IMG/VR virus record: IMGVR_UViG_3300021185_002017
DNA length: 64,000 nt
Source of the DNA: a virus
Taxonomy: Duplodnaviria > Caudoviricetes
Strand: one strand, 5' to 3'
The notes below the pieces were generated by a model that did not search any database, had not been told where the DNA came from, and worked only from the letters and a program-made list of their open reading frames with translations. The translations under genes were made by a program, and so were the position numbers. Below are positions 18,101 through 64,000 of the stretch, piece after piece; the first letter of the stretch is position 1; every line of letters begins with the position of its first letter.

Positions 18101-18871
18101 TCATAACCTGGTAGCCATGACCGGATTCCAGAATCCTAAAGTATCATCTAAAGACTTGCACTTTAGAAGTGCTTTATTATAGTACCTTGCATAACCTGTC
18201 ATTTTGTCATTACAAGTATAAAAACTTTCTAAGTATTTTAGATAATTCAGTGGAGTAGGATGGTAGTCTGCTGTTTGCCCTTTATCGCCCCAACCTGATA
18301 TCTCAAGTGGCTTCCATTCGCCGTTATATATTACTTCGTGAATACTAGGCTTAACTTTTTGTGTTGTAGTATGATAAAAGTCTAAAACATCTGGATTACC
18401 TTCGTTATATTCGGGCGAGTCTCTGCCTCCTGATGTATCTTCGAATTCGATCATTTTAAGCATATCAAAATCACAAGGCAAACTTTTTAGATATGCATGA
18501 GACTGTTCTATAATTGCTAAGTCTCTCATAAGATAAAATCTATTATCTGCCCAATCTTCAACAAACTCTTTTGGTTCAAATACACCTTCGGCATAAATGT
18601 TTCCTGGAGTTGACCAAAGACCGTTTTTATAACGATCTTCTCTGCATATACTAGTCCACATAACCATAATTAAATCGTTTGTGGTAAAGTTGTGCTTAAG
18701 ATTTGCTTCTACTATGCTATTAGATATGAATAGATTGCCGCCACCACTTTGTGCATAATTGTAATATTCTGGAGTTACATGTCCTATAATGTCGGCCCAT
18801 GTAGGCCAATTGTATCTTGTAAAACTGCAACCAAAAGCAAAAAATCTTTTGTATTGATCAAAAGGTCTCAA
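18101..18871 (-). CDS. SGNH-hydrolase-like hypothetical protein (paralogue 3)
   Basis: GCSFT...WPTWA...QSGGGN...DYHP; TTG start overlaps the nrdB stop. Confidence 0.55.
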   Translation of the reverse strand: MRPFDQYKRFFAFGCSFTRYNWPTWADIIGHVTPEYYNYAQSGGGNLFISNSIVEANLKHNFTTNDLIMVMWTSICREDRYKNGLWSTPGNIYAEGVFEPKEFVEDWADNRFYLMRDLAIIEQSHAYLKSLPCDFDMLKMIEFEDTSGGRDSPEYNEGNPDVLDFYHTTTQKVKPSIHEVIYNGEWKPLEISGWGDKGQTADYHPTPLNYLKYLESFYTCNDKMTGYARYYNKALLKCKSLDDTLGFWNPVMATRL

Positions 18872-19968
18872 AGGGTTAAACCTTTAAAGGTTTCCTCCGT
18901 AACATCTTGTTTTGTACCACCAATTACATACGAACTAATCTCTGTCTCTTGTGGTGCTACTTGTACATCACTACCGCCTATCCATTTTTGTGTCCACGGT
19001 AATGGGTGTGTTCCTGCTGTGTAAACTTTTTCTAAGCCGATGTTAGTCATTCGCTTAGCCGCAATGTATTCTACATACTGCTTTAATAGCTCTGCGTTTA
19101 GTCCAATAATACTTCCATCTTTGAACAAGTATTCAGCCCATGCTTTTTCTTGCTCAACTGCTTCGATAAACATTTGCTTTGATTCTTCTCTAGTTTCTTC
19201 TGCAATCTTTGCAAAGTCTTCATCTTCTTTAGGTAATAATTTCAACATGTGCTGTGTACTTGCTAAGTGAACATTTTCATCTCTAGCAATTAACTTAATA
19301 ATTTTAGCATTACCTTCCATCTTTTTAACTTCAGCAAATGCCCAACTACATGCAAACGATACATAAAAACGCACACCTTCTAGTATGTTTACGCTCATTA
19401 AACATTTCCATAGTTTCTTCTTATGCTCGTATAAACTATACTTTGCTGCACCTTTACGCATTAAGTCATTGTAGTCATATAGATCGTTGTAGCATTGTGT
19501 AATGCTGTCAGCACAGTCTACAATTTCTTCGATGCTTGTCATCTCATCAAAAACTTTGCTCGGGTCAGGATATACATTTCTGATGATATGTGTATAACTT
19601 CTGCTGTGAATAGTTTCACTAAATGCCCAAGTCTCTATCCAGGTTTCTAATTCTGGTAGACTAACAATAGGCAAGAACACTAAGTTAGGTGAACGCCCTT
19701 GAACACTGTCCAAGAGTATTTGTCTTTTTAAGTTTGATGTAAAGATATGTTGCTCGTGTGCTTCTAAGTCTTTGAAGTCTTTTGAGTCTTTGGCAATATC
19801 AACCTCTTCTGGCCTCCAGAAGAATCCCAATTGTTTGTCGGTAAGTTTTTCAAACTGACGATACTTAATTGTATCATACCGTTGCATACACACACCGCCA
19901 TTGGGGTCTAGGAACATTTTTGCTTCCATGTGATTATATTTTTTATTTGTATTTAAAACTGATTTCAT
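18868..19968 (-). CDS. nrdB: Ribonucleotide reductase class Ia beta subunit
   Basis: FWRPEE, LLDSVQ, ETIHSRSY (radical Tyr), LEGVRFY, RDENVH; ATGA overlap with nrdA. Confidence 0.97.
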   Translation of the reverse strand: MKSVLNTNKKYNHMEAKMFLDPNGGVCMQRYDTIKYRQFEKLTDKQLGFFWRPEEVDIAKDSKDFKDLEAHEQHIFTSNLKRQILLDSVQGRSPNLVFLPIVSLPELETWIETWAFSETIHSRSYTHIIRNVYPDPSKVFDEMTSIEEIVDCADSITQCYNDLYDYNDLMRKGAAKYSLYEHKKKLWKCLMSVNILEGVRFYVSFACSWAFAEVKKMEGNAKIIKLIARDENVHLASTQHMLKLLPKEDEDFAKIAEETREESKQMFIEAVEQEKAWAEYLFKDGSIIGLNAELLKQYVEYIAAKRMTNIGLEKVYTAGTHPLPWTQKWIGGSDVQVAPQETEISSYVIGGTKQDVTEETFKGLTL

Positions 19969-22247
19969 ATTTTGCACGATTCGCAATCATCCTCTTCTAC
20001 TTCGGTAATTTCTAATGCTTCTAGTTTTTGTTCTGTATCTAACTCACCTTGTCCGTCGTTAGTATTATTATAGTACAATTGCTTACCGCCGTATTTGTAA
20101 AATGTAATTATATCTTTAATGAGAACGCTCATTGGCACTTTCTCATCTTCGTAGTGTTCTGGATTGTAAGATGTATTTACCGAAATACCTTGATCTATGT
20201 ATTTTTGTAATACAGCCATAATCTTTAAGTAACCTTCGGGCGACTTTTGATCCCACAATAAGTCATACTTATTTTTAAGTCTTGGGTAACCCGGCACTAC
20301 TTGTTTCAATACACCGTGCTTACTTTGTTTAACACTGATGTAACTGCGTGGTGGTTCAATACCATTTGTGCTGTTACTAATCTGTGCTGATGTTTCTGCT
20401 GGCATAAGTGCCATCAGTGTTGAATTACGGATACCAGTCTCTGCTAACTGCTTACGCAATCCTTTCCAATCTTGTCTTTCTTGATGCTTAACTAGCTCGT
20501 CAACTTCTTTCTTGTATGTTTGGTTAGGTGTTAATCCTCTACCGTACTTAGTTTCTACTGTTCCTGGGCACTCGCCTTTCTCAACTGCTAAATCTGCACT
20601 TGCCTTAATTAAGAAATAACTCCATGCTTCGGCCCATTCGTCAATTAACTCTAAGTTAGGATCTTGATATGTTGAGTCATTCTTTGCTAACCAATATGCA
20701 AAGTTAATAATACCAATACCTAACGGTCTGCGTTTCATTGTGCTTAACTGTGCTGCAAGTACTGGGTAACTTTGGTAGTCTAAGAGTGCGTCTAAGCCTC
20801 TTACAGCAAGGTTACATACTCGTTGCATCTGTTTGAAGTCTTTAATAACACCCCAATTGATAGCACTTAAAGTACATAAACTAATTTCACCTTCTGCATC
20901 ATCAACACTTGTTAATGGCTTAGTTGGTAAGTTAATCTCACAGCATAAATTACTTTGCTTAACAGGTGCTACATCCTCTACAAATGCTCCATGTGTGTTA
21001 GCATGATCAACATTCATTAAATATATTCTACCTGTGTCTTTGCGTTCTGTTGCAAACGCAGAAAATAAATCCATTGCCTTAACAGATCTCTTTTTAATAC
21101 GAGTGTTTCTTTCTGCTGTTTCGTATAGTTCTTTAAACTTATCTTGATCAGCAAAGAAAGCATCGTATAAGCCAGGTACATCATGCGGTGAGAACAATGT
21201 AATGTCTCCACCTGTTAATAACCTTTCATACATTAACTTGTTAAACTGCACACCGTAGTCCATGTGTCTTACACGATTTTCTTCTGTGCCTTTGTTGTTC
21301 TTGAGTACAAGCATGTCTTCAATTTCTGTGTGCCAAATAGGATAGTATAGTGTGGCTGCTCCACCTCTTACACCGCCCTGTGAACATGACTTAACTGCTG
21401 ATTGAAAAAGTTTATAGAAGGGGATAACTCCTGTATGAGTTGCATCTCCACTCCTAATAGGTGAACCAATAGCTCTAATAGCACCAGCACCAATACCAAT
21501 ACCTGCTTTCTGACTTACATACTTAACTACAGCACTTGTAGTTGCATTAATGCTGTCTAAACTGTCATCAGTTTCAATAAGCACACAACTACTAAACTGT
21601 CTTTGTGGTGTACGCACACCTGCCATAACTGGTGTAGGCAAACTTATTTCAAATGTACTAATTGCATCGTAGTATGCTTTAACATATTCAAGTCTTGTTT
21701 CTTTGTCGTACTTACTAAACAATGTCATAGCAATAAGCATATAACACACTTGTGGTGTTTCAAATATCTCACCTGTTGCTCTGTTCTGCACAAGATACTT
21801 GCCACGGAATTGTTCCATAGCCGCATAAGTTAAATACTCATCTCTACTGTGATTGATGTAGTTGCTTAGTGTATCAACTTCATCCTTTGTGTATGCGATT
21901 AAAATTTCTCTATCGTAAAACCCTTGCTTGATATTTTTGTCTATGATATCACATAAACACGGTGGCTGAAACTCACCATACACTGCTTTACGCAAATGAT
22001 AGTTGATTAGCCTTCCTGCTACATATTGATAATTTGGTGATTCTTCGCTAATTAAATCAGCGGCACTTTTGATAAGTGTCTCTTGTATATCAGTACTTGT
22101 AATTCCGTTGTACAATTGTATCTGACTGTTGATCTCTACTTCACTTGGTGCAACACCAGTAATGCCATCGCAGGCATATTGTACTACCTTGTGCAACTTG
22201 TCTATGTTGATGTCTTCGAGTTGCCCAGATCGTTTTTGTACTTGCAT
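19965..22247 (-). CDS. nrdA: Ribonucleotide reductase class Ia alpha subunit
   Basis: ATP-cone, FSSCVL, SNLCCEI, KQLYY, C-terminal CESC. Confidence 0.97.
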   Translation of the reverse strand: MQVQKRSGQLEDINIDKLHKVVQYACDGITGVAPSEVEINSQIQLYNGITSTDIQETLIKSAADLISEESPNYQYVAGRLINYHLRKAVYGEFQPPCLCDIIDKNIKQGFYDREILIAYTKDEVDTLSNYINHSRDEYLTYAAMEQFRGKYLVQNRATGEIFETPQVCYMLIAMTLFSKYDKETRLEYVKAYYDAISTFEISLPTPVMAGVRTPQRQFSSCVLIETDDSLDSINATTSAVVKYVSQKAGIGIGAGAIRAIGSPIRSGDATHTGVIPFYKLFQSAVKSCSQGGVRGGAATLYYPIWHTEIEDMLVLKNNKGTEENRVRHMDYGVQFNKLMYERLLTGGDITLFSPHDVPGLYDAFFADQDKFKELYETAERNTRIKKRSVKAMDLFSAFATERKDTGRIYLMNVDHANTHGAFVEDVAPVKQSNLCCEINLPTKPLTSVDDAEGEISLCTLSAINWGVIKDFKQMQRVCNLAVRGLDALLDYQSYPVLAAQLSTMKRRPLGIGIINFAYWLAKNDSTYQDPNLELIDEWAEAWSYFLIKASADLAVEKGECPGTVETKYGRGLTPNQTYKKEVDELVKHQERQDWKGLRKQLAETGIRNSTLMALMPAETSAQISNSTNGIEPPRSYISVKQSKHGVLKQVVPGYPRLKNKYDLLWDQKSPEGYLKIMAVLQKYIDQGISVNTSYNPEHYEDEKVPMSVLIKDIITFYKYGGKQLYYNNTNDGQGELDTEQKLEALEITEVEEDDCESCKI

Positions 22248-55491: not shown

Positions 55492-56286
55492 TTACTCTCT
55501 ATCTTCGTACCAATCGTCAAACATTTCTTTAACATATTCAGTTTCTTCCATATCATAACTGACATATTTTTCTGATACATCATGCCATTTAGTGTTAACA
55601 AAACCAACACCAGCATAATAACCTTTGCCCATTGAATCCGAATAATCATAGTCAACTTGTAAAGGTTTACGGTCATACCAATATGACTCAATAAACTCGC
55701 CCATATCAGATTCAAGTTGTCCTGTTTGAAGTAACTCTGGGTCAAAGTCTTCGCCATCAGTTTCAACATACACTTCACCAAATGTACCTTTTTCTGAACT
55801 TAAGAAAAACAATGTTGGTTGATAGTCTTCTTCATTTTCAGAATCAATTTCGTCACTGCTATAACATTCTCTACTATAGATACAAGCCTCGTAGGAATAA
55901 TAATTGCTGTCATCTAATTCTTCAAACATCATTGTACTGTAGTCGTGATCTACATCTTCCTTCCACTGTATCAATCCATCTTCATAAATTGCATCTTCAT
56001 GTAATGTGATTTCAGTAACTTCAAACTCATTGTCAGCGAATGGACTATTAATGTGTTCTAGATCATCGTTCTCATTCCAACAATAAAAATCTTCCAATTT
56101 AGGTGACGCTGAATCCATCATGTCTTCGTCGTCCCACTCAATGCCTTGTAGATGCTCGATTAAATCTCCATCGCCATCTTCTGCAACTTTTGGCTTCCAG
56201 TAGTCAACAAACTCTTTGCTAACTCCGCCAACTGCTAATTCACCGCCATAACGACCGGTGTTAATTCTAAAATATCTTTTGCTCAT
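55492..56286 (-). CDS. Acidic hypothetical protein
   Basis: 264-aa Asp/Glu-rich ORF. Confidence 0.7.
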   Translation of the reverse strand: MSKRYFRINTGRYGGELAVGGVSKEFVDYWKPKVAEDGDGDLIEHLQGIEWDDEDMMDSASPKLEDFYCWNENDDLEHINSPFADNEFEVTEITLHEDAIYEDGLIQWKEDVDHDYSTMMFEELDDSNYYSYEACIYSRECYSSDEIDSENEEDYQPTLFFLSSEKGTFGEVYVETDGEDFDPELLQTGQLESDMGEFIESYWYDRKPLQVDYDYSDSMGKGYYAGVGFVNTKWHDVSEKYVSYDMEETEYVKEMFDDWYEDRE

Positions 56287-56780
56287 AATAATTCTCCAAA
56301 GTCTATATCTTTCACTTTGTTTGCTTCTTTAACAAACATAGCACATTTAGGTTCCTTTTTATCTTCCAAAGGAATTACCAATATATGGCCGTTTTTTAGT
56401 CTTGGGAAATACCATTTAACATCTTGGTATACATTGGTAATCTGTATTTCTTCATTGTCCGGAATGCCATTACGCATTGGGTTGAAGACTGGTGTAACAA
56501 AGCCTCTATTGTTTAGGCTTGCTAATGGAATAACTTCTAAACTACCGAAATCTTCATCGCTAGTTAGAATACTCCAATCCATAGGCATTTGTAATTGAAA
56601 CTCGCCTATCTGTAAACATATCGCTGGAGCATGAAAACTCTCTAAGAATATGAGTGGTAAGAAATAGTAGTCTTTGTAATCTGGTTCGCTAGTATCGAAC
56701 ACACAATATCTTAAATCATCTATTTCGTCTGGTACTGTATCTAGTTCGTATACTGCATTTTCAACTGTTAATATTTTCAT
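56283..56780 (-). CDS. Conserved hypothetical protein next to UvsW
   Basis: ATGA-coupled to the helicase. Confidence 0.7.
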   Translation of the reverse strand: MKILTVENAVYELDTVPDEIDDLRYCVFDTSEPDYKDYYFLPLIFLESFHAPAICLQIGEFQLQMPMDWSILTSDEDFGSLEVIPLASLNNRGFVTPVFNPMRNGIPDNEEIQITNVYQDVKWYFPRLKNGHILVIPLEDKKEPKCAMFVKEANKVKDIDFGELL

Positions 56781-58234
56781 TTATACTCCACTTTGGTTAC
56801 CGAGTATCTAAACTTTTGTTCAGCATAAAATTGCTTTCTTTTTGTTAGATGTCTCTTACTATACTTTAGATTACTCGTTAAGTCAATCACTTTCAGATAA
56901 TCTTTATCTTCTGCTTTACGGATTCCTCTGCCAATGCTTTGTATAACACGAACAAAACTCTTTCCAGGTTCGAGCAATACAAGGTTAAATATTCGAGGAA
57001 TGTTAATTCCTACTGCGGCAACTCCGTATGTTGCAACAATAACTTTATTATCTGCTTCAGACACTTCAGCATATTCATCCTGCCTGTCTGTTGTTTTCAT
57101 TTTGCCACTGATAAATGTCCAATCAGGATTTCTTTCAGATAGCATTTCTCCAGTTGCAATTCGATCTATTAGTACTAATGTATTGCCATTTACTGCAAGT
57201 CCATTAATGATAGAACTAATTTGATCTATGCGTTGTGGGTCTGTGACCAACCATTTAAGTTCTTGTGCATACCCATTAAACCCTAGTGTACCATCTTGCA
57301 ATTGAAATATATCAATGTCTAAGTCTGCTAGTACGCCCATGTCTTGTAGTTCTTTACTGCTTAGTTCACCTACAACAGGACCTAAGCAACAAGTACAAGC
57401 CACTGCTTCATGTTCGTCTTTGGGTATAGTTCCTGTTAATCCCCAACGCACTGGTACATTAGAGAAAACACTGCTTAGAAGGTCTCTAAGCACATCTGCT
57501 TTTGCTTTGTGTACTTCGTCTACCATTACACATACTACTTCATCTAAAAACTGTTCTATGTCAATTGGTGCTTCACCTTTCTTTGACTTCTTAGATAGCA
57601 TGGATAAACTTTGCCAAGTACAAATGGTATGTGTCTTTGTATACTCTTTTCTATCGCCGAATAGTACTCCAACATCTAAACCTAAATTCTTGTAATCTCT
57701 TTCTGTTTGCACTACCAAGTCTTTGTTTGGTACGATTACTATTGTGCGACCATACTTCTCACACTTGTGACTCAGTACGGCTGTAATAAGTGTTTTACCT
57801 GCTCCTGTTGCTACTTGTTGTAAACACTGTGGATTCTGTAAAAACTTATTAATAACTTTAACTTGATAATCACGCAATATAACTGGCATGCCTTCAACTG
57901 GATGTCCTTTAGGCCATGCTACATGATCATAGTCTGTTGATGTAACATCTTCAAAAGACAATTGAATAGGTTGCCTTTGATCGTTTACTTCTATCTCATA
58001 ACCGGCTTCGGTTACTAATGGTAATAAACGATCAAGCAAATTAAGATAAGTTCTGCCGCCAACATCACAGAATCTTACACAGCCATCCCATCTACCTAGT
58101 TTGTATGCAGGCATATGATATGCATACGGTAAAAAGTATTTGGCTGCTTCGGATATCTTTCTGCGAGTTGCTACATCAAGTCCAACGAACTTGACATTTA
58201 CTTCATCTCTTATTTCTAAAGTTACTTTAGGCAT
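56777..58234 (-). CDS. uvsW: SF2 DNA helicase (UvsW-like)
   Basis: LRDYQ, ATGAGKT, VDEVH, GLTGT, QSIGRGIR. Confidence 0.9.
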   Translation of the reverse strand: MPKVTLEIRDEVNVKFVGLDVATRRKISEAAKYFLPYAYHMPAYKLGRWDGCVRFCDVGGRTYLNLLDRLLPLVTEAGYEIEVNDQRQPIQLSFEDVTSTDYDHVAWPKGHPVEGMPVILRDYQVKVINKFLQNPQCLQQVATGAGKTLITAVLSHKCEKYGRTIVIVPNKDLVVQTERDYKNLGLDVGVLFGDRKEYTKTHTICTWQSLSMLSKKSKKGEAPIDIEQFLDEVVCVMVDEVHKAKADVLRDLLSSVFSNVPVRWGLTGTIPKDEHEAVACTCCLGPVVGELSSKELQDMGVLADLDIDIFQLQDGTLGFNGYAQELKWLVTDPQRIDQISSIINGLAVNGNTLVLIDRIATGEMLSERNPDWTFISGKMKTTDRQDEYAEVSEADNKVIVATYGVAAVGINIPRIFNLVLLEPGKSFVRVIQSIGRGIRKAEDKDYLKVIDLTSNLKYSKRHLTKRKQFYAEQKFRYSVTKVEYK

Positions 58235-58239
58235 ACGCT

Positions 58240-58268
58240 ATTATAGTCTACTTGTATGTTAATGTCAA
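58240..58268 (-). promoter_or_regulatory. Sigma70-type promoter, probably leaderless transcript
   Basis: TTGACA-17-TATAAT ending 5 nt before the ATG. Confidence 0.75.
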
Positions 58269-59822
58269 GAAGAACTTGCGTCCTCCTGCGTCATATCCTG
58301 GTAATACTTCAACAACATCATCTAGTACATCTTGTACTGTAAATGCTAATCCAAGTTTATCAGATAGTTGTTTTCTCAATACAAAGTCTACTGACTTAAT
58401 ATCATCCAACGATGCACCATCATACGGTCCAGGGTCTCTATCAAACTGTGCTGTATAACTTAATTCAGCAGTTGTTTCACCGAAACTAGCAAAGTATGAA
58501 ATACGACCTTTGTACGCAGGTACTCTAGGTTGATCAGTATCTGTATATGCTACAAAAACATTTAAACTACCATAAGGTACAGCATACATGTCTTGGAATC
58601 TGACACCTTTGGTTTCATATTCGCCTGTGTTAACATATTGCTGAGAACTGCCATCGTAGTCAATATTTTCATCAAAGTCATATGCAAAGTATGAAAGACC
58701 TAAGTAACCAATTTCAAATCCAGTTCCTTCTTCAGGCTTCAAACCTAAGTTTGGTTTTACCCATGAGTCGCCGTATTGTTGATACAATGTAGGATTACGA
58801 TAACTTGTACTAATGTTAGCAAAGAAACCTTTACTATTATCAAAGCCAAGTCTGTATACTCTTGCATCTTCACTTACTCGTGTGCCAAACTGCAACTGGT
58901 TGTTATATGTAATAACAGCATAGCCACTAACATCATCCTGTGACTCACCAATGTAGTTTTCTTTATCGTATGTAATACCTGACACAATAGTTGTTACAGG
59001 ATTAAGATTAAAAGTATCTCTGGCATCAAAGTAATAACGATCTGCATCATTTGAATAAGTACTTACACCTTCGGTGAAGTATTCACTTTCAGTTTTGTTA
59101 TAACCAATTGTTACATGTTCGTTCCTTACACTAATGTCAGTCCTTGTACCTTCTTGTACACATTCATTTGACTGTGAAAAAGATGATGTATAACAATTAT
59201 CATAATCGTATTCATAATCTACATGTGACATTGCTAAAGTAAAACCATAAATGTCTCTGACTGATTTAATAGATGTATTTTTATAGTCATCTCTTTCAGT
59301 ATTATCGTTTCGCACACTGTCATTAGATACATCAAATGATGATACACTTATGGAGTCAAGTATTGCTACATTTAGCAATTGATGATGCTCCCCAAGTCTA
59401 AGAACTGCTTGGTCTTCGATTTTGTCATTTATAAACACTGTTCCGCCTAGGCTACCAGAGCCATAAAGAACACTGTTAGGTCCTGAAACAATGTTAACTG
59501 TCTCGAGTCCACTCACAACATCATGTGCAAAGTCATACCAGCCTGAGCCGGAATCATTTGCTGGTACACCGTTCCTGTACACGGTTGTGTGTGTAGTTTG
59601 AGTACCTCGTTCATTAAAGCCAGCAAATCCACCATATCCACCTGCTACAAATGAAGTAGCCGGCATAACAATTTCAATAATTGACATGTCGTCTGTTACA
59701 TCTGTGGTGTCTACTTGACTTACTGTTCCAACGACTACAATCTCTTCAATGAGATTAGAGTCTTCTGCTAAAACTGCATTACTCGTTGCGAGTAATAAAA
59801 GCAGTGTTACTAAGTTTTTCAT
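58248..59822 (-). CDS. TonB-dependent outer-membrane receptor (BtuB-like, short)
   Basis: Signal peptide, TonB-box-like EEIVVVG, plug motifs (NGVP.ND; GPNSVLYGSGSLGGTVFI), C-terminal GRKFFLTLTY. Confidence 0.85.
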   Translation of the reverse strand: MKNLVTLLLLLATSNAVLAEDSNLIEEIVVVGTVSQVDTTDVTDDMSIIEIVMPATSFVAGGYGGFAGFNERGTQTTHTTVYRNGVPANDSGSGWYDFAHDVVSGLETVNIVSGPNSVLYGSGSLGGTVFINDKIEDQAVLRLGEHHQLLNVAILDSISVSSFDVSNDSVRNDNTERDDYKNTSIKSVRDIYGFTLAMSHVDYEYDYDNCYTSSFSQSNECVQEGTRTDISVRNEHVTIGYNKTESEYFTEGVSTYSNDADRYYFDARDTFNLNPVTTIVSGITYDKENYIGESQDDVSGYAVITYNNQLQFGTRVSEDARVYRLGFDNSKGFFANISTSYRNPTLYQQYGDSWVKPNLGLKPEEGTGFEIGYLGLSYFAYDFDENIDYDGSSQQYVNTGEYETKGVRFQDMYAVPYGSLNVFVAYTDTDQPRVPAYKGRISYFASFGETTAELSYTAQFDRDPGPYDGASLDDIKSVDFVLRKQLSDKLGLAFTVQDVLDDVVEVLPGYDAGGRKFFLTLTYK

Positions 59823-59845
59823 TATTTCTCCTTATTAATATAAAT

Positions 59846-59881
59846 GAAAAAAAGTACACTCCCCATAATTGAGGAGTGTAC
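59846..59881 (-). terminator. Intrinsic terminator between ATPase and TBDR genes
   Basis: GTACACTCC...GGAGTGTAC plus T7. Confidence 0.85.
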
Positions 59882-59913
59882 CAGTCGAAGCGTCTAGGCT
59901 ACTGTGGGAGTAT

Positions 59914-60945
59914 TTAAAATCCCAAACGCTTCATACAAGTGCTCTCGGCCAATCCTTTCCAGGTGTCCGGAGACATTTGTTTTAAGTCGGCTATCTTAAG
60001 TACCATTCTTAATGATATCTCTCGAAGCCTACTAGCCTTTTCATGCATAAAGTCTACGACTTCTGCATTACCTTCATCACCAAACTTGTACTCGTCTAGC
60101 ATACCGTCCTTAACAATCTGGTTGATTCTTAAGAAACGATCTTTAACACTATCCATTTCCAAGTCCATGTAGTGACATCTCGACATCAACGCCGCTAAGT
60201 GGTCTTGTATCTTCTTACTACGAACATTCTCGAAGTTCACATTAGTGATAAAGATACAACCTCCTGAGAATTCAAACCTATCTGGAATTCCTTCTCTTCG
60301 CAATGCCGCTGATTCTGACTTCCAACTAATTGTACGCTTCTTACCTGAGTCAAGTACTGCCTTCAACATGTTCAAGCATACCTCATCAAATAAGATACTG
60401 TCACAGTCATCAAACACAAGGATGTCACCTTTGTTTGAATTGTTAAACAATGTTTGGTACAAACCAATTGGTGTCATTGAACCTTTTACAACTTCTGTTC
60501 TCGGTGGACGACCTGCAAGTTTAGTTTCTGCATCGTACATATCGAGAATAGACTCAACACCAAACGACTTACCAACACCCGGAGGGCCACTTACAATAAG
60601 ACCTCTAACAACACCGTTTGCCACAGCATCAGTCATTTGGTCTAGTATATCGAAACGCTCACGGATTCTAGCCATTGCCTGCTCATCAGTTTCTTTAGGC
60701 TTAGCCTCAGTCTCTGGAGCAGTTTCAACAAGTTTCTCACCTTCGGCATCTGCTAAAGGCTCAACACTTGCTAGTGTTGGTACTACAACACGGATTGAAG
60801 TACGCTCTGGTCCTAATAATGCTGATGCATCTACAGTCACAAAGTATCCTTTCTTTCCTTGTTGAGTTGGTTTAATCAAAGGAAACACTCCTTCAATCGG
60901 TTGATTACGGTATACACCATTTTCTATTTTTACAAAGTTTGACAT
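59914..60945 (-). CDS. AAA-family ATPase
   Basis: SGPPGVGKS Walker A, VFDDCD Walker B; GGGAGG SD sets the start. Confidence 0.85.
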   Translation of the reverse strand: MSNFVKIENGVYRNQPIEGVFPLIKPTQQGKKGYFVTVDASALLGPERTSIRVVVPTLASVEPLADAEGEKLVETAPETEAKPKETDEQAMARIRERFDILDQMTDAVANGVVRGLIVSGPPGVGKSFGVESILDMYDAETKLAGRPPRTEVVKGSMTPIGLYQTLFNNSNKGDILVFDDCDSILFDEVCLNMLKAVLDSGKKRTISWKSESAALRREGIPDRFEFSGGCIFITNVNFENVRSKKIQDHLAALMSRCHYMDLEMDSVKDRFLRINQIVKDGMLDEYKFGDEGNAEVVDFMHEKASRLREISLRMVLKIADLKQMSPDTWKGLAESTCMKRLGF

Positions 60946-60985
60946 ATCTAGCCCTCCCACAGGCGTTAATTTAAACAATACATGT

Positions 60986-61014
60986 ATTATACAGTATCAA
61001 TGAGTTCGTGTCAA
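60986..61014 (-). promoter_or_regulatory. Sigma70-type promoter
   Basis: TTGACA-17-TATAAT. Confidence 0.8.
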
Positions 61015-61016
61015 CC

Positions 61017-61163
61017 TTAAAATATAAGGCTAAAAATCCAAAGAACAAGTAAAATACCAGCAAAAGAACCAAGCAATTCTGCACCGTTTTTAGAGCTAAA
61101 CACAGAACCAATAATTGCATACACAAAGTATAATGGTATTAGTGCGGCTATAAACGATAACAT
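61017..61163 (-). CDS. 48-aa two-TM membrane peptide (not in ORF track)
   Basis: MLSFIAALIPLYFVYAIIGSVFSSKNGAELLGSFAGILLVLWIFSLIF; AAGGAG SD and own promoter. Confidence 0.75.
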   Translation of the reverse strand: MLSFIAALIPLYFVYAIIGSVFSSKNGAELLGSFAGILLVLWIFSLIF

Positions 61164-61194
61164 ATTTCTTACTCCTTTTTTGCTTTATGTGTAT

Positions 61195-61255
61195 ATTATA
61201 CAGTCAAAAGCATAAGAAGTCAAGTGAAAATATCACAAATAAATCAATGACTTAC
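61195..61255 (-). promoter_or_regulatory. Sigma70-type promoter with upstream 15-bp motif
   Basis: GTAAGTCATTGATTT-17-TTGACT-17-TATAAT. Confidence 0.75.
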
Positions 61256-61257
61256 GC

Positions 61258-61719
61258 CTAATCTATTGTGATATCTTCCATTCCTGCTGTTCTTAGTTTA
61301 GTGATATGCCCAATTTGCCATTGTTTAGTATCTAGGCCTTTCATAATGCCCAAATACCTATTACGCAATAATGCAAACTGATTGCACAAATGGGTTAGAT
61401 CTATAACAGATTGCTCACCATCAACATACTTTTCAGCATCTCTGCTGGTAAGTTGTCTATTATATGTCTCGAAGAACTTCCTAAACACAACACTACGCTC
61501 CTTACGGAGTGCAATATTTAAGTGTTCAAGGATTGCTTCGATCTCTTGTAATTGATTGAATCGGTGTTCTGTAATACCGGGCAGGGAGGCACTGGCTCTT
61601 TCCAGGCTCCCTTTGATTCGGCATTCATACTTGGCACCGTCAAGTTCATTCTCGAAGTAACTAATAGCATCTACTATGTCACCAAGGTTCGAAGTAACTT
61701 TATTATACCAAGTACTCAT
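61258..61719 (-). CDS. uvsY: Recombination mediator UvsY-like
   Basis: YNRQLTSRDAEKYVDGE...GIMKGLDTKQWQI; next to UvsX. Confidence 0.8.
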   Translation of the reverse strand: MSTWYNKVTSNLGDIVDAISYFENELDGAKYECRIKGSLERASASLPGITEHRFNQLQEIEAILEHLNIALRKERSVVFRKFFETYNRQLTSRDAEKYVDGEQSVIDLTHLCNQFALLRNRYLGIMKGLDTKQWQIGHITKLRTAGMEDITID

Positions 61720-61962
61720 TTAATCCCAATCCCCGTCTTCGTCGTCTTCGTCATCATTTACTGAACTGATTTCAAAATGTGATACAATAGATGCTCTCAT
61801 AATGCCATCAAATTCGTTTAATGAATCTTCGATTTCTCCGATATCTGCGTTTTCGTCAAACACACGAACTAGTTGTTCTGCAGTTTGCAATTTGTCTTTC
61901 TTAGGGACAAAGTGCTTAATGCTATCCCACAACTCGTGTAGGAAACTAATATCATGATTCAT
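61720..61962 (-). CDS. Small acidic hypothetical protein
   Basis: Coupled to the uvsX stop. Confidence 0.7.
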   Translation of the reverse strand: MNHDISFLHELWDSIKHFVPKKDKLQTAEQLVRVFDENADIGEIEDSLNEFDGIMRASIVSHFEISSVNDDEDDEDGDWD

Positions 61963-63058
61963 CTAATGAGTCCTCCATAGGATCAATTACATCTGGCTCA
62001 TCTACCATGTCTTCGTCAACTTCTGCAACTTCTGGAATTTTATCCCATTCATCGATAATGACTTGCAACTTGTCAGATGTCCATCCTTTTCTAAATTCCT
62101 TTATCTCTTCGCCTGTTACAGGTGAGACATAGGATAGTTTATTACCAACTTTAGTAAGTAGACTTTTCTGTTCTAGCATTTCTACTAGACCACTATAAGG
62201 GTCCATTCCGCTTTCATATGGAATCTTGATTTGCACACCTTCAAAAGGTTTGCTGTATCTAGACTTCATAACTTTACATGCGGCACGAATACCTTGTACA
62301 GTAGAAACTTTGTTTCCGTCTAAGTCTTCTTTAAGTTTTAGTTTACGCATAGCAACAACAATACTACTTGCATAGATAAAGCCTTGACCACCGCTGATTT
62401 TATCATCTGGGTCAAACATGTCTTGCGAAGCGTATGTGTGGTTAGTTGCAACAATACCTACTGGGAATGGTGCAATTTGGTTAACCATGTTACGCACTAG
62501 GGCAGTTAGAGCCTTTGGCTTTCTACCCATATCACCTTTCATGTCACCTTTTTCAAATTGTGCTACATCAGTTGGTGTAAGTAACATACCTAAACTATCA
62601 ATAACAAACAACAACTTAGGCATTTCGTCATACTCTAAATCACCGTAGTTACTTTTATAGTCTTTCATAAAGTCACTTAGTGTTTTGGCAACATCATCAA
62701 TCATGCTAACACTAATCTTGAGAAGTTTCTCAGGAGTTGTGTCTACATCTAATGCTTGTAGCCAGTCTTCGTCAAGTGCGTTTTCTGAATCAAACAATAC
62801 AACTTGGCATCCTTGATCCTGTGCCGCCTTTACAATGTTACCGGAACAGATAAAACTTTTACCTGAACCGGACTCACCTGCAAAAACACTTACTTTGCCT
62901 AGTGGAATACCTCTATTGAAGTCTCCACTAATTAAATAGTTAAGTGTGTGGTTACCTGTGCTGATCCAATCTTTTGGATCATGGAAGCCTGCACTAATTC
63001 CACTAATGGATTTAGTCACGGACGTCCTGAACTTTGTTAAGTCAAATGGTTTCTGCAT
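61952..63058 (-). CDS. uvsX: RecA-like recombinase (UvsX)
   Basis: ISTG...LN.LISG, AGESGSGKS, DSENA, VIDSLG, GGQG..YASS. Confidence 0.93.
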   Translation of the reverse strand: MQKPFDLTKFRTSVTKSISGISAGFHDPKDWISTGNHTLNYLISGDFNRGIPLGKVSVFAGESGSGKSFICSGNIVKAAQDQGCQVVLFDSENALDEDWLQALDVDTTPEKLLKISVSMIDDVAKTLSDFMKDYKSNYGDLEYDEMPKLLFVIDSLGMLLTPTDVAQFEKGDMKGDMGRKPKALTALVRNMVNQIAPFPVGIVATNHTYASQDMFDPDDKISGGQGFIYASSIVVAMRKLKLKEDLDGNKVSTVQGIRAACKVMKSRYSKPFEGVQIKIPYESGMDPYSGLVEMLEQKSLLTKVGNKLSYVSPVTGEEIKEFRKGWTSDKLQVIIDEWDKIPEVAEVDEDMVDEPDVIDPMEDSLDES

Positions 63059-63068
63059 GTTAGTCTCC

Positions 63069-64000
63069 TTAAGAACGGTTTCTAATCATGTTCAGAATAT
63101 CATCTGCACTCGCATTACTTGCAGGAGCCGCCGCTGCTGGTTCTGCTACTGGAGCAGGCTCAGGAGTTACCGGTGCTGGTGCTGGTGCTGCAGGTGCCGC
63201 TGTTTCTACTACAGGTGCTGTTGGTGCTACCGGAGCCGGAGCCGGTGCTTGTTGAGCTGGTGCTGTAGTTGCTTGTACGCCTGATTGCACAGCATTTGCA
63301 GGAACTTCAACGCCATATGGCTTGTAGAAGTTACCCCATCTTGCTGGATCATAAAGTTCGCCATCTACACTTGCTTGGAACATTTCGCTAATTGCTTGGT
63401 AATGTTCAGCAGTAGGTTGTGCAGGTAAGTAATCTTTTAGATTAAACAAACCGTTTGCATCAATAGCTGCAAGTTGAGTTTCATCTAATGAACTCTCTTT
63501 ACGAGCCCACTTTGAAGTACTGTAGTCTGCATATTGACCTTTGGTTGTTTTACTAACACGGAAGTCTGTACCGTTAAGGTAATCAGTTGGAATATTTTCC
63601 ATATCCGGGTCCATCAAAGATGACTTGATGATGTTAAAGATTTGAGGTGAAATTACAAATCTACGAATTGGGTTTTCAGGTGCTTCCTCGTTCAAAGGAT
63701 TATCTGTAACAAAACCGTTAAAGATATATGAACGCTTTTTCCAGTACTTACGACCCATGTCTTCTAGACTTGCATCTTTAAACCAAGGACGAACCTCAGT
63801 TAATACTGGACAAGTGTCACCGTACATTTCACCGCAAGGTACTTGTACTGTAACTGGTTTGTTTTCTCCGCCTAATACACCTGGGAAGGTTAGACGAATC
63901 ATTTGACGCTCTACCCAAAAGAAGTCGTTAGTAGTGTCACTGTCAGGTAAAAACCTAAGTGTTGCACTTGTTCCTTCGTCGATATTCCAGTGTGGATAAA
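63069..64000 (-). CDS. Single-stranded DNA-binding protein (gp32-like), 5' end outside window
   Basis: Frame stays open to the window edge: YPHWNIDEGTSATLRFLPD...FFWVERQMI...CPV...KYWKK; Pro/Ala linker. Confidence 0.88.
   Translation of the reverse strand, partial: YPHWNIDEGTSATLRFLPDSDTTNDFFWVERQMIRLTFPGVLGGENKPVTVQVPCGEMYGDTCPVLTEVRPWFKDASLEDMGRKYWKKRSYIFNGFVTDNPLNEEAPENPIRRFVISPQIFNIIKSSLMDPDMENIPTDYLNGTDFRVSKTTKGQYADYSTSKWARKESSLDETQLAAIDANGLFNLKDYLPAQPTAEHYQAISEMFQASVDGELYDPARWGNFYKPYGVEVPANAVQSGVQATTAPAQQAPAPAPVAPTAPVVETAAPAAPAPAPVTPEPAPVAEPAAAAPASNASADDILNMIRNRS

What the first reader, a model, noticed from the sequence alone, without database searches (positions are those of the whole stretch)
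58248..59822. Phage-encoded compact TonB-dependent receptor inserted among recombination genes
It has a signal peptide, TonB box, plug and barrel, but is only 524 aa and ends in YK rather than the usual terminal Phe. It sits between the AAA ATPase and UvsW. Inference: an auxiliary uptake system (B12 or iron) or a receptor decoy/superinfection-exclusion factor; suggests a diderm host.
Basis: partly seen in the sequence, partly recalled or inferred. Interest (0 to 1): 0.6.

Follow-up and report, generated by a model that had tools for sequence, protein, structure and literature searches.

The report
Phage-only miniature BtuB-type outer-membrane transporter
An uncultured marine jumbo phage carries an intact, trimmed-down copy of a bacterial vitamin-B12-type outer-membrane import gate. 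This version occurs in hundreds of related phage contigs but in no cellular genome searched, so the phages probably install their own nutrient gate in the host they infect.

Summary
ORF 58248-59822 (-) encodes 524 aa with a signal peptide, a TonB box, a plug and a 22-strand barrel. The AlphaFold model has pLDDT 93.9 and matches E. coli BtuB at Z 37.9, rmsd 2.3 A over 493 residues.

It stops one residue short of BtuB's terminal Phe. Most of the family lacks that aromatic too.

It is not an artefact or a recent capture:
- 265 IMG/VR contigs encode relatives.
- 79 of 80 examined loci have the order AAA ATPase - receptor - UvsW.
- dN/dS is 0.08-0.24.
- No decayed copies were seen.
- No family member turned up in 185,579 species genomes.
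- Among 1.84 billion representatives the family scores 415-780 bits. The nearest full-length outsiders score 122 bits or less and are all BtuB-like.

It behaves as an exchangeable cassette between a conserved terminator and the UvsW promoter. Alleles can be 59% identical where the flanking genes are 95-98% identical, and 11 of 64 relatives have an empty site.

My best reading is a working TonB-dependent importer of a corrinoid-like cofactor. The ligand is unproven. I could not verify a link to B12 enzymes, and the loops BtuB uses for high-affinity binding are trimmed.

Other agents of this scan noted the same family in at least 8 other genomes. I found no paper on it.

The parts
58248..59822 (-). 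Gene for the 524-aa compact BtuB-type TonB-dependent transporter (stop codon TAG at 58248-58250)
   Evidence: ORF list and translation. Pfam Plug. TIGR01779 is the best NCBIfam hit. AlphaFold2 pLDDT 93.9. BtuB match at Z 37.9.
59766..59822 (-). Signal peptide, residues 1-19 (MKNLVTLLLLLATSNAVLA)
   Evidence: Read directly from the sequence. The model shows a helix at 2-12 followed by a low-confidence linker. No predictor was available.
59727..59750 (-). TonB box region, residues 25-32 (IEEIVVVG)
   Evidence: E26 is invariant; I25 and V30 are at least 90% conserved. Same position and pattern as BtuB DTLVVTA; the BtuB motif is from my own knowledge, with the BtuB sequence taken from L164.
59412..59720 (-). 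Plug (hatch) domain, residues 35-137
   Evidence: PF07715 covers residues 46-128. It is one of the best conserved parts of the family, with mean top-residue frequency 0.69. It is confidently folded in the second model.
58251..59411 (-). 22-strand beta-barrel, residues 138-524. Extracellular loops are short: L1, L4 and L5 are 2 aa, L6 is 3, L8 is 4, L9 is 5, L2 is 9, L10 is 12, L3 is 13 with invariant C210/C221, and L7 is 21.
   Evidence: DSSP strands of both models. Invariant residues. Alignment to BtuB over residues 22-524.
59853..59882 (-). Intrinsic terminator between the AAA ATPase gene and the transporter gene: 13-bp stem followed by a T run
   Evidence: Terminator scan. A hairpin is kept at the same place in relatives with different, compensating stem sequences. 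It is also present at empty sites.
59828..59833 (-). Shine-Dalgarno AAGGAG, 5 nt before the ATG
   Evidence: Read from the sequence.
58240..58268 (-). Perfect sigma-70 promoter (TTGACA-17-TATAAT) for UvsW. Its -35 box is formed by codons Leu519-Thr520 of the transporter's last strand, and its -10 box lies just after the stop codon.
   Evidence: Promoter scan scores 12/12. Sequence. The same overlap occurs in 23 of 41 distinct relatives.
60986..61014 (-). Perfect sigma-70 promoter in front of the AAA ATPase gene. It is the likely source of read-through transcripts that reach the transporter gene.
   Evidence: Promoter scan scores 12/12. Sequence. The read-through is my inference.
59914..60978 (-). 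Upstream neighbour: AAA ATPase (phrog_1250)
   Evidence: PHROG E-value 7e-83. 40% identity to PA5oct-group jumbo phages.
56777..58234 (-). Downstream neighbour: UvsW-type helicase
   Evidence: Pfam ResIII/DEAD/Helicase_C. phrog_16. 54% identity to PA5oct-group phages.

Best explanation
The gene encodes a working, miniaturised TonB-dependent outer-membrane transporter that descends from the BtuB (cobalamin receptor) branch. It now exists only in a clade of uncultured marine T4-like jumbo phages.

Proposed mechanism:
1. Host RNA polymerase transcribes the gene with the early replication and recombination genes.
2. In this phage, transcription probably reaches it at a reduced level by read-through of the conserved terminator behind the AAA ATPase gene.
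3. The protein is exported by Sec, folded into the host outer membrane by BAM, and energised through its conserved TonB box by the host TonB-ExbBD complex.
4. It then brings a scarce small cofactor into the infected cell. A corrinoid is the most likely ligand; a haem or metal chelate is the main alternative.

What is shown: the gene is intact, the fold is complete, it derives from the BtuB branch, it is found only in phage contigs, it is under purifying selection, and it behaves as a cassette.

What is inferred: the time and level of expression, insertion into the outer membrane, coupling to TonB, and the ligand.
For: Fold and descent:
- Complete TBDT architecture at high model confidence (pLDDT 93.9, pTM 0.90).
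- E. coli BtuB is the top structural match: Z 37.9, rmsd 2.3 A, 493 residues. B. thetaiotaomicron BtuB scores 33-34, ChuA/ShuA 32-33, and most other transporters listed 29-31.
- BtuB is the only full-length PDB hit of the family profile, at E 1e-23.
- hhalign against E. coli BtuB gives probability 98.8 over 462 columns.
- All 30 nearest full-length non-family proteins tested, drawn from 1.84 billion representatives, match TIGR01779 TonB-B12.

Signs that transport function is kept:
- The TonB box is conserved (E26 invariant).
- The plug is among the best conserved parts (0.69).
- The short extracellular loops are better conserved than the periplasmic turns: L2 0.77, L9 0.81, L11 0.69, L7 0.68 against 0.18-0.44 for nine of the ten turns. 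That fits a conserved outward-facing binding site rather than an arms-race surface.

Selection and distribution:
- dN/dS is 0.08-0.24.
- Only 4 of 80 loci lack a full ORF, and all 4 are cut by a contig end.
- 265 IMG/VR contigs carry the gene.
- Synteny holds in 79 of 80 loci.

Expression:
- Distant members (L077-L080) have a consensus TTGACA-17-TATAAT promoter directly upstream, so they fall in the early, host-polymerase class.

Metabolic context:
- A SAM synthetase lies 2.8 kb downstream.
- Presence of the transporter goes with presence of MetK in 49 loci (28/14/1/6), but the lineages are not independent.
Against: - No experiment exists, and the ligand is not established.
- High-affinity B12 binding in BtuB depends on loops L2-L5 and a five-aspartate calcium cage. 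Partial deletions in L7, L8, L9 and L11 strongly reduce binding and transport (PMC7360065). Here L4 and L5 are 2 residues, L8 is 4 and L9 is 5.
- The TIGR01779 score is 58.7 bits against a cut-off of 599.7.
- The phage ribonucleotide reductase in the window is class Ia, so it does not need B12.
- No B12-binding domain (PF02310) was found in 10 related contigs, about 700 kb in total.
- The one large radical SAM gene near the transporter in a relative is an N-twitch type, not a B12 type.
- The terminal aromatic residue of the usual BAM signal is missing in about 90% of the family.
- No TonB or ExbB gene was found in 5 related contigs. The system therefore needs a host TonB, and the host is unknown.
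- Another agent's note says a related phage infects SAR11, which lacks TonB. I did not test this.
- In this phage there is no room for a full promoter between the terminator and the Shine-Dalgarno sequence, so expression is inferred.
Confidence: 0.5

Rival explanations
1. The machine is the same but the cargo differs. It imports an iron complex or haem to feed the phage's many iron enzymes, not a corrinoid.
For: - The second-best NCBIfam hits are haem/haemoglobin receptor families: TIGR01786 at E 1.9e-11 and TIGR01785 at E 8.9e-8.
- ChuA and ShuA are the next structural matches after the BtuBs, at Z 32-33.
- The window encodes a class Ia ribonucleotide reductase, which has a di-iron subunit.
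- Relatives carry several radical SAM (Fe-S) genes close to the transporter.
- The plug apex carries a family-specific invariant motif rich in aromatics and His (W95, D97, H100). The corresponding BtuB stretch has different residues.
- No B12-binding domain was found in 10 related contigs.
Against: - All 30 nearest cellular relatives tested match the BtuB model, with the top member showing it as its best hit.
- BtuB outranks haem and siderophore receptors by 4-8 Z units.
- There is no His in the L7 region between the FRAP-like and NPNL-like boxes, where haem receptors usually have one. That rule is from my own knowledge; the sequence is.
Confidence: 0.2
2. It is not primarily an importer. It acts as a surface or TonB decoy that protects the infected cell. 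A loop-less receptor could take the place of the host receptors that other phages and bacteriocins dock on. Its TonB box could also soak up the limited TonB, giving superinfection exclusion.
For: - The extracellular loops, which are the usual docking sites of phages and colicins on BtuB/FhuA-type receptors, are trimmed to a minimum.
- The TonB box is conserved.
- The gene is dispensable, with an empty site in 11 of 64 relatives.
- Alleles are swapped between otherwise nearly identical phages. For example, L001 against L014 shows 98% UvsW identity, 95% AAA identity and 59% receptor identity, with dS 2.4 in the receptor against 0.2-0.3 in the flanks. That pattern is typical of genes at the host or competitor interface.
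- Competition of receptors for limited TonB is known in E. coli (from my own knowledge).
Against: - The outward-facing loops and the plug are the most conserved parts, and the periplasmic turns the least. A target of antagonistic evolution should show the opposite.
- A TonB sink would not need an intact, highly conserved plug and full barrel.
- A newly made receptor does not remove host receptors already in the membrane.
Confidence: 0.2
3. It is a non-functional passenger, an assembly chimera or a decaying gene.
For: - It lacks the canonical terminal aromatic residue.
- It scores far below the BtuB equivalog cut-off.
- It lies behind a terminator with no obvious promoter of its own.
Against: - The same gene at the same site occurs on hundreds of independent contigs.
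- dN/dS is 0.08-0.24.
- No internal stops were seen in 76 complete copies.
- The high-confidence fold is complete.
Confidence: 0.03

Closest known systems
E. coli BtuB, the outer-membrane cobalamin transporter (PDB 1NQE/1NQH/2GSK; NCBIfam TIGR01779, NF007926)
   Same: - Signal peptide.
- TonB box at the same distance from the mature N-terminus.
- Plug and 22-strand barrel.
- Best structural match: Z 37.9, rmsd 2.3 A, 493 residues.
- Only full-length PDB sequence hit of the family profile.
- hhalign probability 98.8.
- The C-terminal half is clearly alignable, including the SYRxP...NxxLxPE and PGYxxxGR motifs.
   Different: - About 19% identity.
- The mature protein has about 505 residues against 594.
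- The plug is about 17 residues shorter at its N-terminal side.
- Most extracellular loops are cut to 2-5 residues.
- L3 carries an invariant Cys pair.
- The terminal Phe is absent.
- There is no cobalamin riboswitch upstream.
- It is encoded by phages only.
- It scores 58.7 bits against the 599.7-bit equivalog cut-off.
Putative TonB-dependent receptor SusC of the marine megaphage Mar_Mega_1 (UniProt A0A8D9FQQ5; PMC9723777)
   Same: It is a phage-encoded TonB-dependent receptor homologue from an uncultured marine phage, read by its authors as an uptake AMG. It is the only other TBDT fold in the BFVD viral structure library.
   Different: - It is SusC-type and 805 aa long.
- The structural similarity is weak: E 2.6e-9, TM 0.51/0.35, 9% identity.
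- It is a different family, in a different phage group, and was reported only as an annotation.
Other phage-encoded envelope uptake or surface genes, such as cyanophage PstS and phage-borne porins
   Same: The concept is the same: a lytic phage carries a host-type nutrient-acquisition or outer-membrane protein and expresses it during infection. This comparison rests on my own knowledge. BFVD lists phage OmpC-like and OprP-like proteins.
   Different: Those proteins are binding proteins or passive porins. This one is an energy-coupled gated transporter that must engage the host TonB. It forms a phage-exclusive clade rather than a recent host copy.

Membership tests
TonB-dependent transporters (TBDT; Pfam Plug PF07715 + TonB_dep_Rec PF00593) | N-terminal Sec signal peptide | tested here: met
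   The N-terminus MKNLVTLLLLLATSNAVLA/ED has a charged n-region, a hydrophobic core and an A-x-A site. I judged this by eye because no predictor was available.
TonB-dependent transporters (TBDT; Pfam Plug PF07715 + TonB_dep_Rec PF00593) | TonB box near the mature N-terminus | tested here: met
   EEIVVVG at residues 26-32. E26 is invariant; I25 and V30 are at least 90% conserved in 36 relatives.
TonB-dependent transporters (TBDT; Pfam Plug PF07715 + TonB_dep_Rec PF00593) | Plug domain | tested here: met
   PF07715 scores 44 bits against a cut-off of 23.9. The plug is folded at high confidence inside the barrel.
TonB-dependent transporters (TBDT; Pfam Plug PF07715 + TonB_dep_Rec PF00593) | 22-strand beta-barrel | tested here: met
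   I counted 22 strands from DSSP. Residues 22-524 align to BtuB residues 15-593 at rmsd 2.3 A. Pfam PF00593 itself does not reach E 0.01 for this member, but it is on record for several relatives.
TonB-dependent transporters (TBDT; Pfam Plug PF07715 + TonB_dep_Rec PF00593) | C-terminal aromatic residue (beta-signal for BAM) | tested here: not met
   The protein ends in YK. Last residues in 117 family members: K 36, P 25, R 24, W 9, N 8, E 8, F 3. As a control, 69 cellular TBDRs end in F 40, L 12, W 2, I 2. This residue is usual but not strictly required (from my own knowledge).
BtuB cobalamin receptor (NCBIfam TIGR01779 / NF007926 equivalogs) | Score above the equivalog cut-off | tested here: not met
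   TIGR01779 gives 58.7 bits against 599.7. NF007926 gives 44.1 bits against 836. TIGR01779 is still the best-scoring family.
BtuB cobalamin receptor (NCBIfam TIGR01779 / NF007926 equivalogs) | Calcium cage of aspartates in L2/L3 and long loops L2-L5 that bind cobalamin | tested here: inconclusive
   Acidic residues are invariant in L2 and at the start of L3 (D173, E176, D178, D206, D208). E176, D178 and D208 are also kept in BtuB-like outgroups. However, L4 and L5 are only 2 residues, and hhalign is unreliable in this half of the barrel.
BtuB cobalamin receptor (NCBIfam TIGR01779 / NF007926 equivalogs) | Cobalamin riboswitch in the leader (usual for bacterial btuB) | tested here: not met
   There was no Rfam match at E <= 1 in 56000-64000. 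Only 91 nt separate the two genes, and a terminator fills most of that space.
BtuB cobalamin receptor (NCBIfam TIGR01779 / NF007926 equivalogs) | Binds and transports cobalamin | not testable with these tools
   This needs uptake or binding assays.

The most novel reading that the evidence does not exclude
A globally distributed lineage of marine jumbo phages maintains its own exclusive clade of minimal, energy-coupled outer-membrane transporters, among the smallest natural TonB-dependent transporters. The phages swap alleles of it as a cassette to suit the envelope (TonB, BAM) of whichever host they infect. A lytic virus would thus install a private cofactor gate in the host surface. It would be the first viral TonB-dependent transporter shown to work, and a natural minimal scaffold for studying this transporter class.
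Probability: 0.4. Interest if true: 0.8.

Novelty: new variant of a known kind. Interest (0 to 1): 0.62.

Why it matters
If the protein works, it shows that lytic phages remodel the energy-coupled uptake machinery of the host outer membrane, not only cytoplasmic metabolism. That would add a viral route to the marine cycling of scarce cofactors such as B12, haem or iron.

The family is also a natural experiment in how far a TonB-dependent transporter can be trimmed and still be kept by selection. It has about 505 mature residues, loops of 2-5 residues and no terminal aromatic. That is useful for structural and engineering work, and for understanding what BAM and TonB really require.

The cassette behaviour gives a marker that may track host envelope type in an uncultured phage clade. 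Alleles are swapped between near-identical phages, and some relatives have empty sites.

Tried and rejected
I therefore could not read the 200-250 kb contigs that carry relatives P0012 and P0015.
- The window's own assembly is not held. The B12-dependent radical SAM genes that other readers report elsewhere in this genome could not be checked.
- The Pfam B12-binding domain was sought in 10 related contigs and not found.
- A 603-aa radical SAM gene near the transporter in a relative proved to be an N-twitch type, not a B12 type.
- TonB_C and ExbB were sought in 5 related contigs and not found.
- There is no match to the protein, or to 10 kb of flanking DNA, in 50,697 deposited phage genomes.
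- There is no Rfam match around the gene.
- The nearest cellular relatives give no clear sister group or donor; all score 105-135 bits. I therefore built no tree for donor inference.
- I could not assign a host. Hints from other agents' notes point both to SAR86 and to SAR11.
- Seven literature searches found no paper on this family. They found only the Mar_Mega_1 SusC annotation and an unrelated 'TonB-dependent receptor' label in pelagiphage Skadi.
- I considered that the lost terminal Phe was forced by the overlapping UvsW promoter. I rejected this because members that end in W fit the same promoter with an 18-nt spacer.
Full report
**What is there**

The minus-strand ORF 58248-59822 encodes 524 residues. 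It starts with a typical Sec signal (MKNLVTLLLLLATSNAVLA, then EDS). A TonB box (EEIVVVG, residues 26-32) follows at the same distance from the mature N-terminus as DTLVVTA in E. coli BtuB.

Pfam finds the Plug domain above its cut-off (44 against 23.9 bits). The best NCBIfam model is the vitamin B12 receptor TIGR01779. It spans residues 60-524 but scores only 58.7 bits against a cut-off of 599.7.

A first AlphaFold2 model built on 36 relatives was confident in the barrel only. A second model, built on 130 sequences that included BtuB-like outsiders, reached mean pLDDT 93.9 and pTM 0.90. It shows a plug inside a barrel in which I count 22 strands.

VIA-align places E. coli BtuB first, at Z 37.9, rmsd 2.3 A and 493 aligned residues, with model residues 22-524 on BtuB 15-593. 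Bacteroides BtuBs score 33-34, the haem transporters ChuA/ShuA 32-33, and most of the siderophore, zinc and copper transporters listed 29-31. The fold is therefore a complete TonB-dependent transporter, and its closest solved relative is BtuB.

**Why it is compact**

The mature protein has about 505 residues against 594 in BtuB. The plug is about 17 residues shorter on its N-terminal side. The predicted extracellular loops are minimal:
- L1, L4 and L5: 2 residues each
- L6: 3
- L8: 4
- L9: 5
- L2: 9
- L10: 12
- L3: 13, with invariant C210 and C221
- L7: 21

In hhalign (probability 98.8, 462 columns) the last residue K524 pairs with BtuB T613, and BtuB's terminal F614 has no partner.

This is a family trait. 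Among 117 full-length relatives the last residue is K in 36, P in 25, R in 24, W in 9, N in 8, E in 8 and F in 3. Of 69 cellular receptors fetched as a control, 56 end in F, L, W or I. A minority of the family ends in Y-x-W, so the usual ending was probably ancestral and then lost.

**How widespread it is, and where**

The word-indexed protein search found 492 clusters at 90% identity. The best 120 score E < 1e-122, are 405-571 aa long, and reach down to 41% identity.

In IMG/VR, 265 viral contigs encode a relative. In 79 of the 80 loci kept, the order is gp32-type SSB, UvsX, UvsY, AAA ATPase, transporter, UvsW, phrog_11279 protein. This holds while UvsW falls to 55% identity and the ATPase to 45%. 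That rules out chimerism.

Scanning one genome for each of 185,579 prokaryote species gave no family member. The best match was 23% identical, and most matches covered only the plug.

An exhaustive profile search of 1.84 billion representatives shows a clean gap. Full-length family members score 415-780 bits. The next full-length proteins are 590-650 aa long and score 122 bits or less. I tested 30 of those outsiders and all match TIGR01779.

The family is absent from 50,697 deposited phage genomes. The only TBDT fold in the BFVD viral structure library is the unrelated 805-aa SusC of megaphage Mar_Mega_1. The flanking genes are most similar to those of the PA5oct group and other jumbo phages.

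**How it evolves**

Pairwise NG86 dN/dS for the transporter is 0.08-0.24. For UvsW it is 0.04-0.10, and for the ATPase 0.06-0.22. The only 4 loci without a full ORF are cut by contig ends. The gene is therefore under purifying selection.

Its divergence is uncoupled from that of its neighbours. The Spearman correlation with UvsW identity is 0.48 for the transporter and 0.86 for the ATPase. In L001 against L014, UvsW is 98% identical and the ATPase 95%, but the transporter only 59%. Its dS is 2.4 against 0.23-0.31 in the flanks. Whole alleles are being exchanged by recombination, rather than one allele evolving fast.

I then anchored on UvsW instead of the transporter. Of 64 loci with enough upstream sequence, 53 have the transporter and 11 do not. 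At several empty sites the ATPase gene, the terminator and a TTGACA promoter directly precede UvsW. The gene is thus an old, widely kept but dispensable cassette at a fixed site.

Within the family, the plug (0.69) and the short outward loops are the best conserved parts: L2 0.77, L9 0.81, L11 0.69, L7 0.68, L3 0.66. The periplasmic turns are the least conserved, with nine of the ten at 0.18-0.44. This is the reverse of what an arms-race surface would show, and it fits a conserved outward-facing binding site.

**Expression signals**

A 13-bp intrinsic terminator (59882-59853) separates the ATPase gene from the transporter gene. Relatives keep a hairpin at this place with different, compensating stems.

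Only about 15-30 nt lie between the T run and the Shine-Dalgarno sequence. That is too little for a sigma-70 promoter plus a leader. In this phage the gene is therefore most likely transcribed by read-through from the perfect TTGACA-17-TATAAT promoter in front of the ATPase gene (61014-60986). That would give a reduced level. This is my inference.

More distant members (L077-L080) have a perfect sigma-70 promoter directly upstream. In another subclade the gene overlaps an unknown 381-aa ORF by 4 nt.

A second perfect promoter, for UvsW, is built into the end of the transporter gene. Its -35 box is formed by the Leu519-Thr520 codons of the last strand, and its -10 box follows the stop codon. 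The same overlap occurs in 23 of 41 distinct relatives. There is no riboswitch or other Rfam match.

**What it most likely does**

The conserved TonB box, plug and outward face, together with purifying selection and descent from BtuB, point to a working TonB-dependent importer placed in the host outer membrane during infection. A corrinoid is the first guess for the ligand because every nearest relative is BtuB-like.

The evidence for B12 itself is thin:
- The loops that BtuB needs for high-affinity binding are trimmed (PMC7360065).
- The phage ribonucleotide reductase is class Ia.
- I found no B12-binding domain in 10 related contigs of 35-102 kb.
- The radical SAM gene near the transporter in one relative is of the N-twitch type.
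- Other readers of this scan report B12-type radical SAM genes elsewhere in this genome. I could not read that DNA.

A weak link to SAM metabolism exists. MetK lies 2.8 kb downstream, and presence of the transporter goes with presence of MetK (28/14/1/6 loci, Fisher p 0.014). The lineages are not independent.

Iron or haem import is a serious alternative, given the iron enzymes of these phages and the second-best family and fold matches. A decoy or TonB-sink role in superinfection exclusion fits the trimmed loops, the dispensability and the allele swapping. It fits the conservation pattern poorly.

No phage TonB or ExbB was found in about 435 kb of related contigs, so a host TonB system is required. 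The host is unknown. The missing terminal aromatic remains unexplained.

**Novelty**

Phage-borne uptake genes are a known idea, and a SusC-type receptor has been annotated in one marine megaphage (PMC9723777). Seven full-text searches found nothing on this family.

The new points are:
- a phage-exclusive, deeply separated, minimal BtuB-type clade;
- its fixed cassette site between a terminator and a promoter;
- allele exchange and empty sites;
- family-wide loss of the terminal aromatic.

Other agents of this scan noted the same family in at least 8 other genomes, so within the scan this is a repeat sighting. I class it as a new variant of a known kind.

Noticed in passing
window 58232-58268 (-): The perfect sigma-70 promoter of UvsW overlaps the transporter's last codons. 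The -35 TTGACA is formed by codons Leu519-Thr520. The -10 TATAAT ends only 5 nt before the UvsW ATG, with no Shine-Dalgarno sequence, so the early UvsW mRNA may be leaderless. The same overlap occurs in 23 of 41 distinct relatives.
   Followed up: partly
window 59902-59910 and 60954-60962 (-): CTCCCACAG lies 4 nt after the AAA ATPase stop codon. The CTCCCAC core recurs at the same place in diverged relatives. It is the exact complement of CTGTGGGAG, which lies at the Shine-Dalgarno-like GGGAGG near the start of the same gene. This may be an anti-Shine-Dalgarno or long-range pairing element.
   Followed up: no
L182:3893-4001 and 10 other loci (L179, L183, L184, L187, L199-L201, L237, L238, L240): These related phages have an empty site. 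In several of them the AAA ATPase gene, the terminator and a TTGACA promoter directly precede UvsW, with no transporter gene.
   Followed up: partly
L030:8859-10004 (+), and the equivalent place in L027-L058: In a distant subclade a 381-aa ORF with no Pfam or NCBIfam match and no signal peptide sits between the ATPase and the transporter. It overlaps the transporter's start by 4 nt, which suggests translational coupling.
   Followed up: partly
family members P0014-P0020 and many IMG/VR loci (e.g. L010, L033): Many relatives carry a conserved N-terminal extension, M-N-K-L-D-K-N-F-H-x-N-F, before the hydrophobic core of the signal peptide. The window's protein lacks it. It may be an extended signal region.
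   Followed up: no
window 60978-61014 (-): The listed TTG start of the AAA ATPase ORF lies 7 nt after the -10 box of its promoter. The PHROG alignment begins only at residue 16. The true start is probably further downstream, behind the GGGAGG.
   Followed up: no
window 18868-22247 (-): The window carries class Ia ribonucleotide reductase genes: NrdA with an ATP-cone and NrdB. The phage's own dNTP synthesis therefore does not need B12.
   Followed up: partly
L064 locus, in contig IMGVR_UViG_3300004369_000597 (L162, L163): In one relative two radical SAM genes flank the module: a 404-aa SPASM type between UvsY and the ATPase, and a 603-aa N-twitch type (NF033640) about 5 kb downstream of the transporter.
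   Followed up: partly
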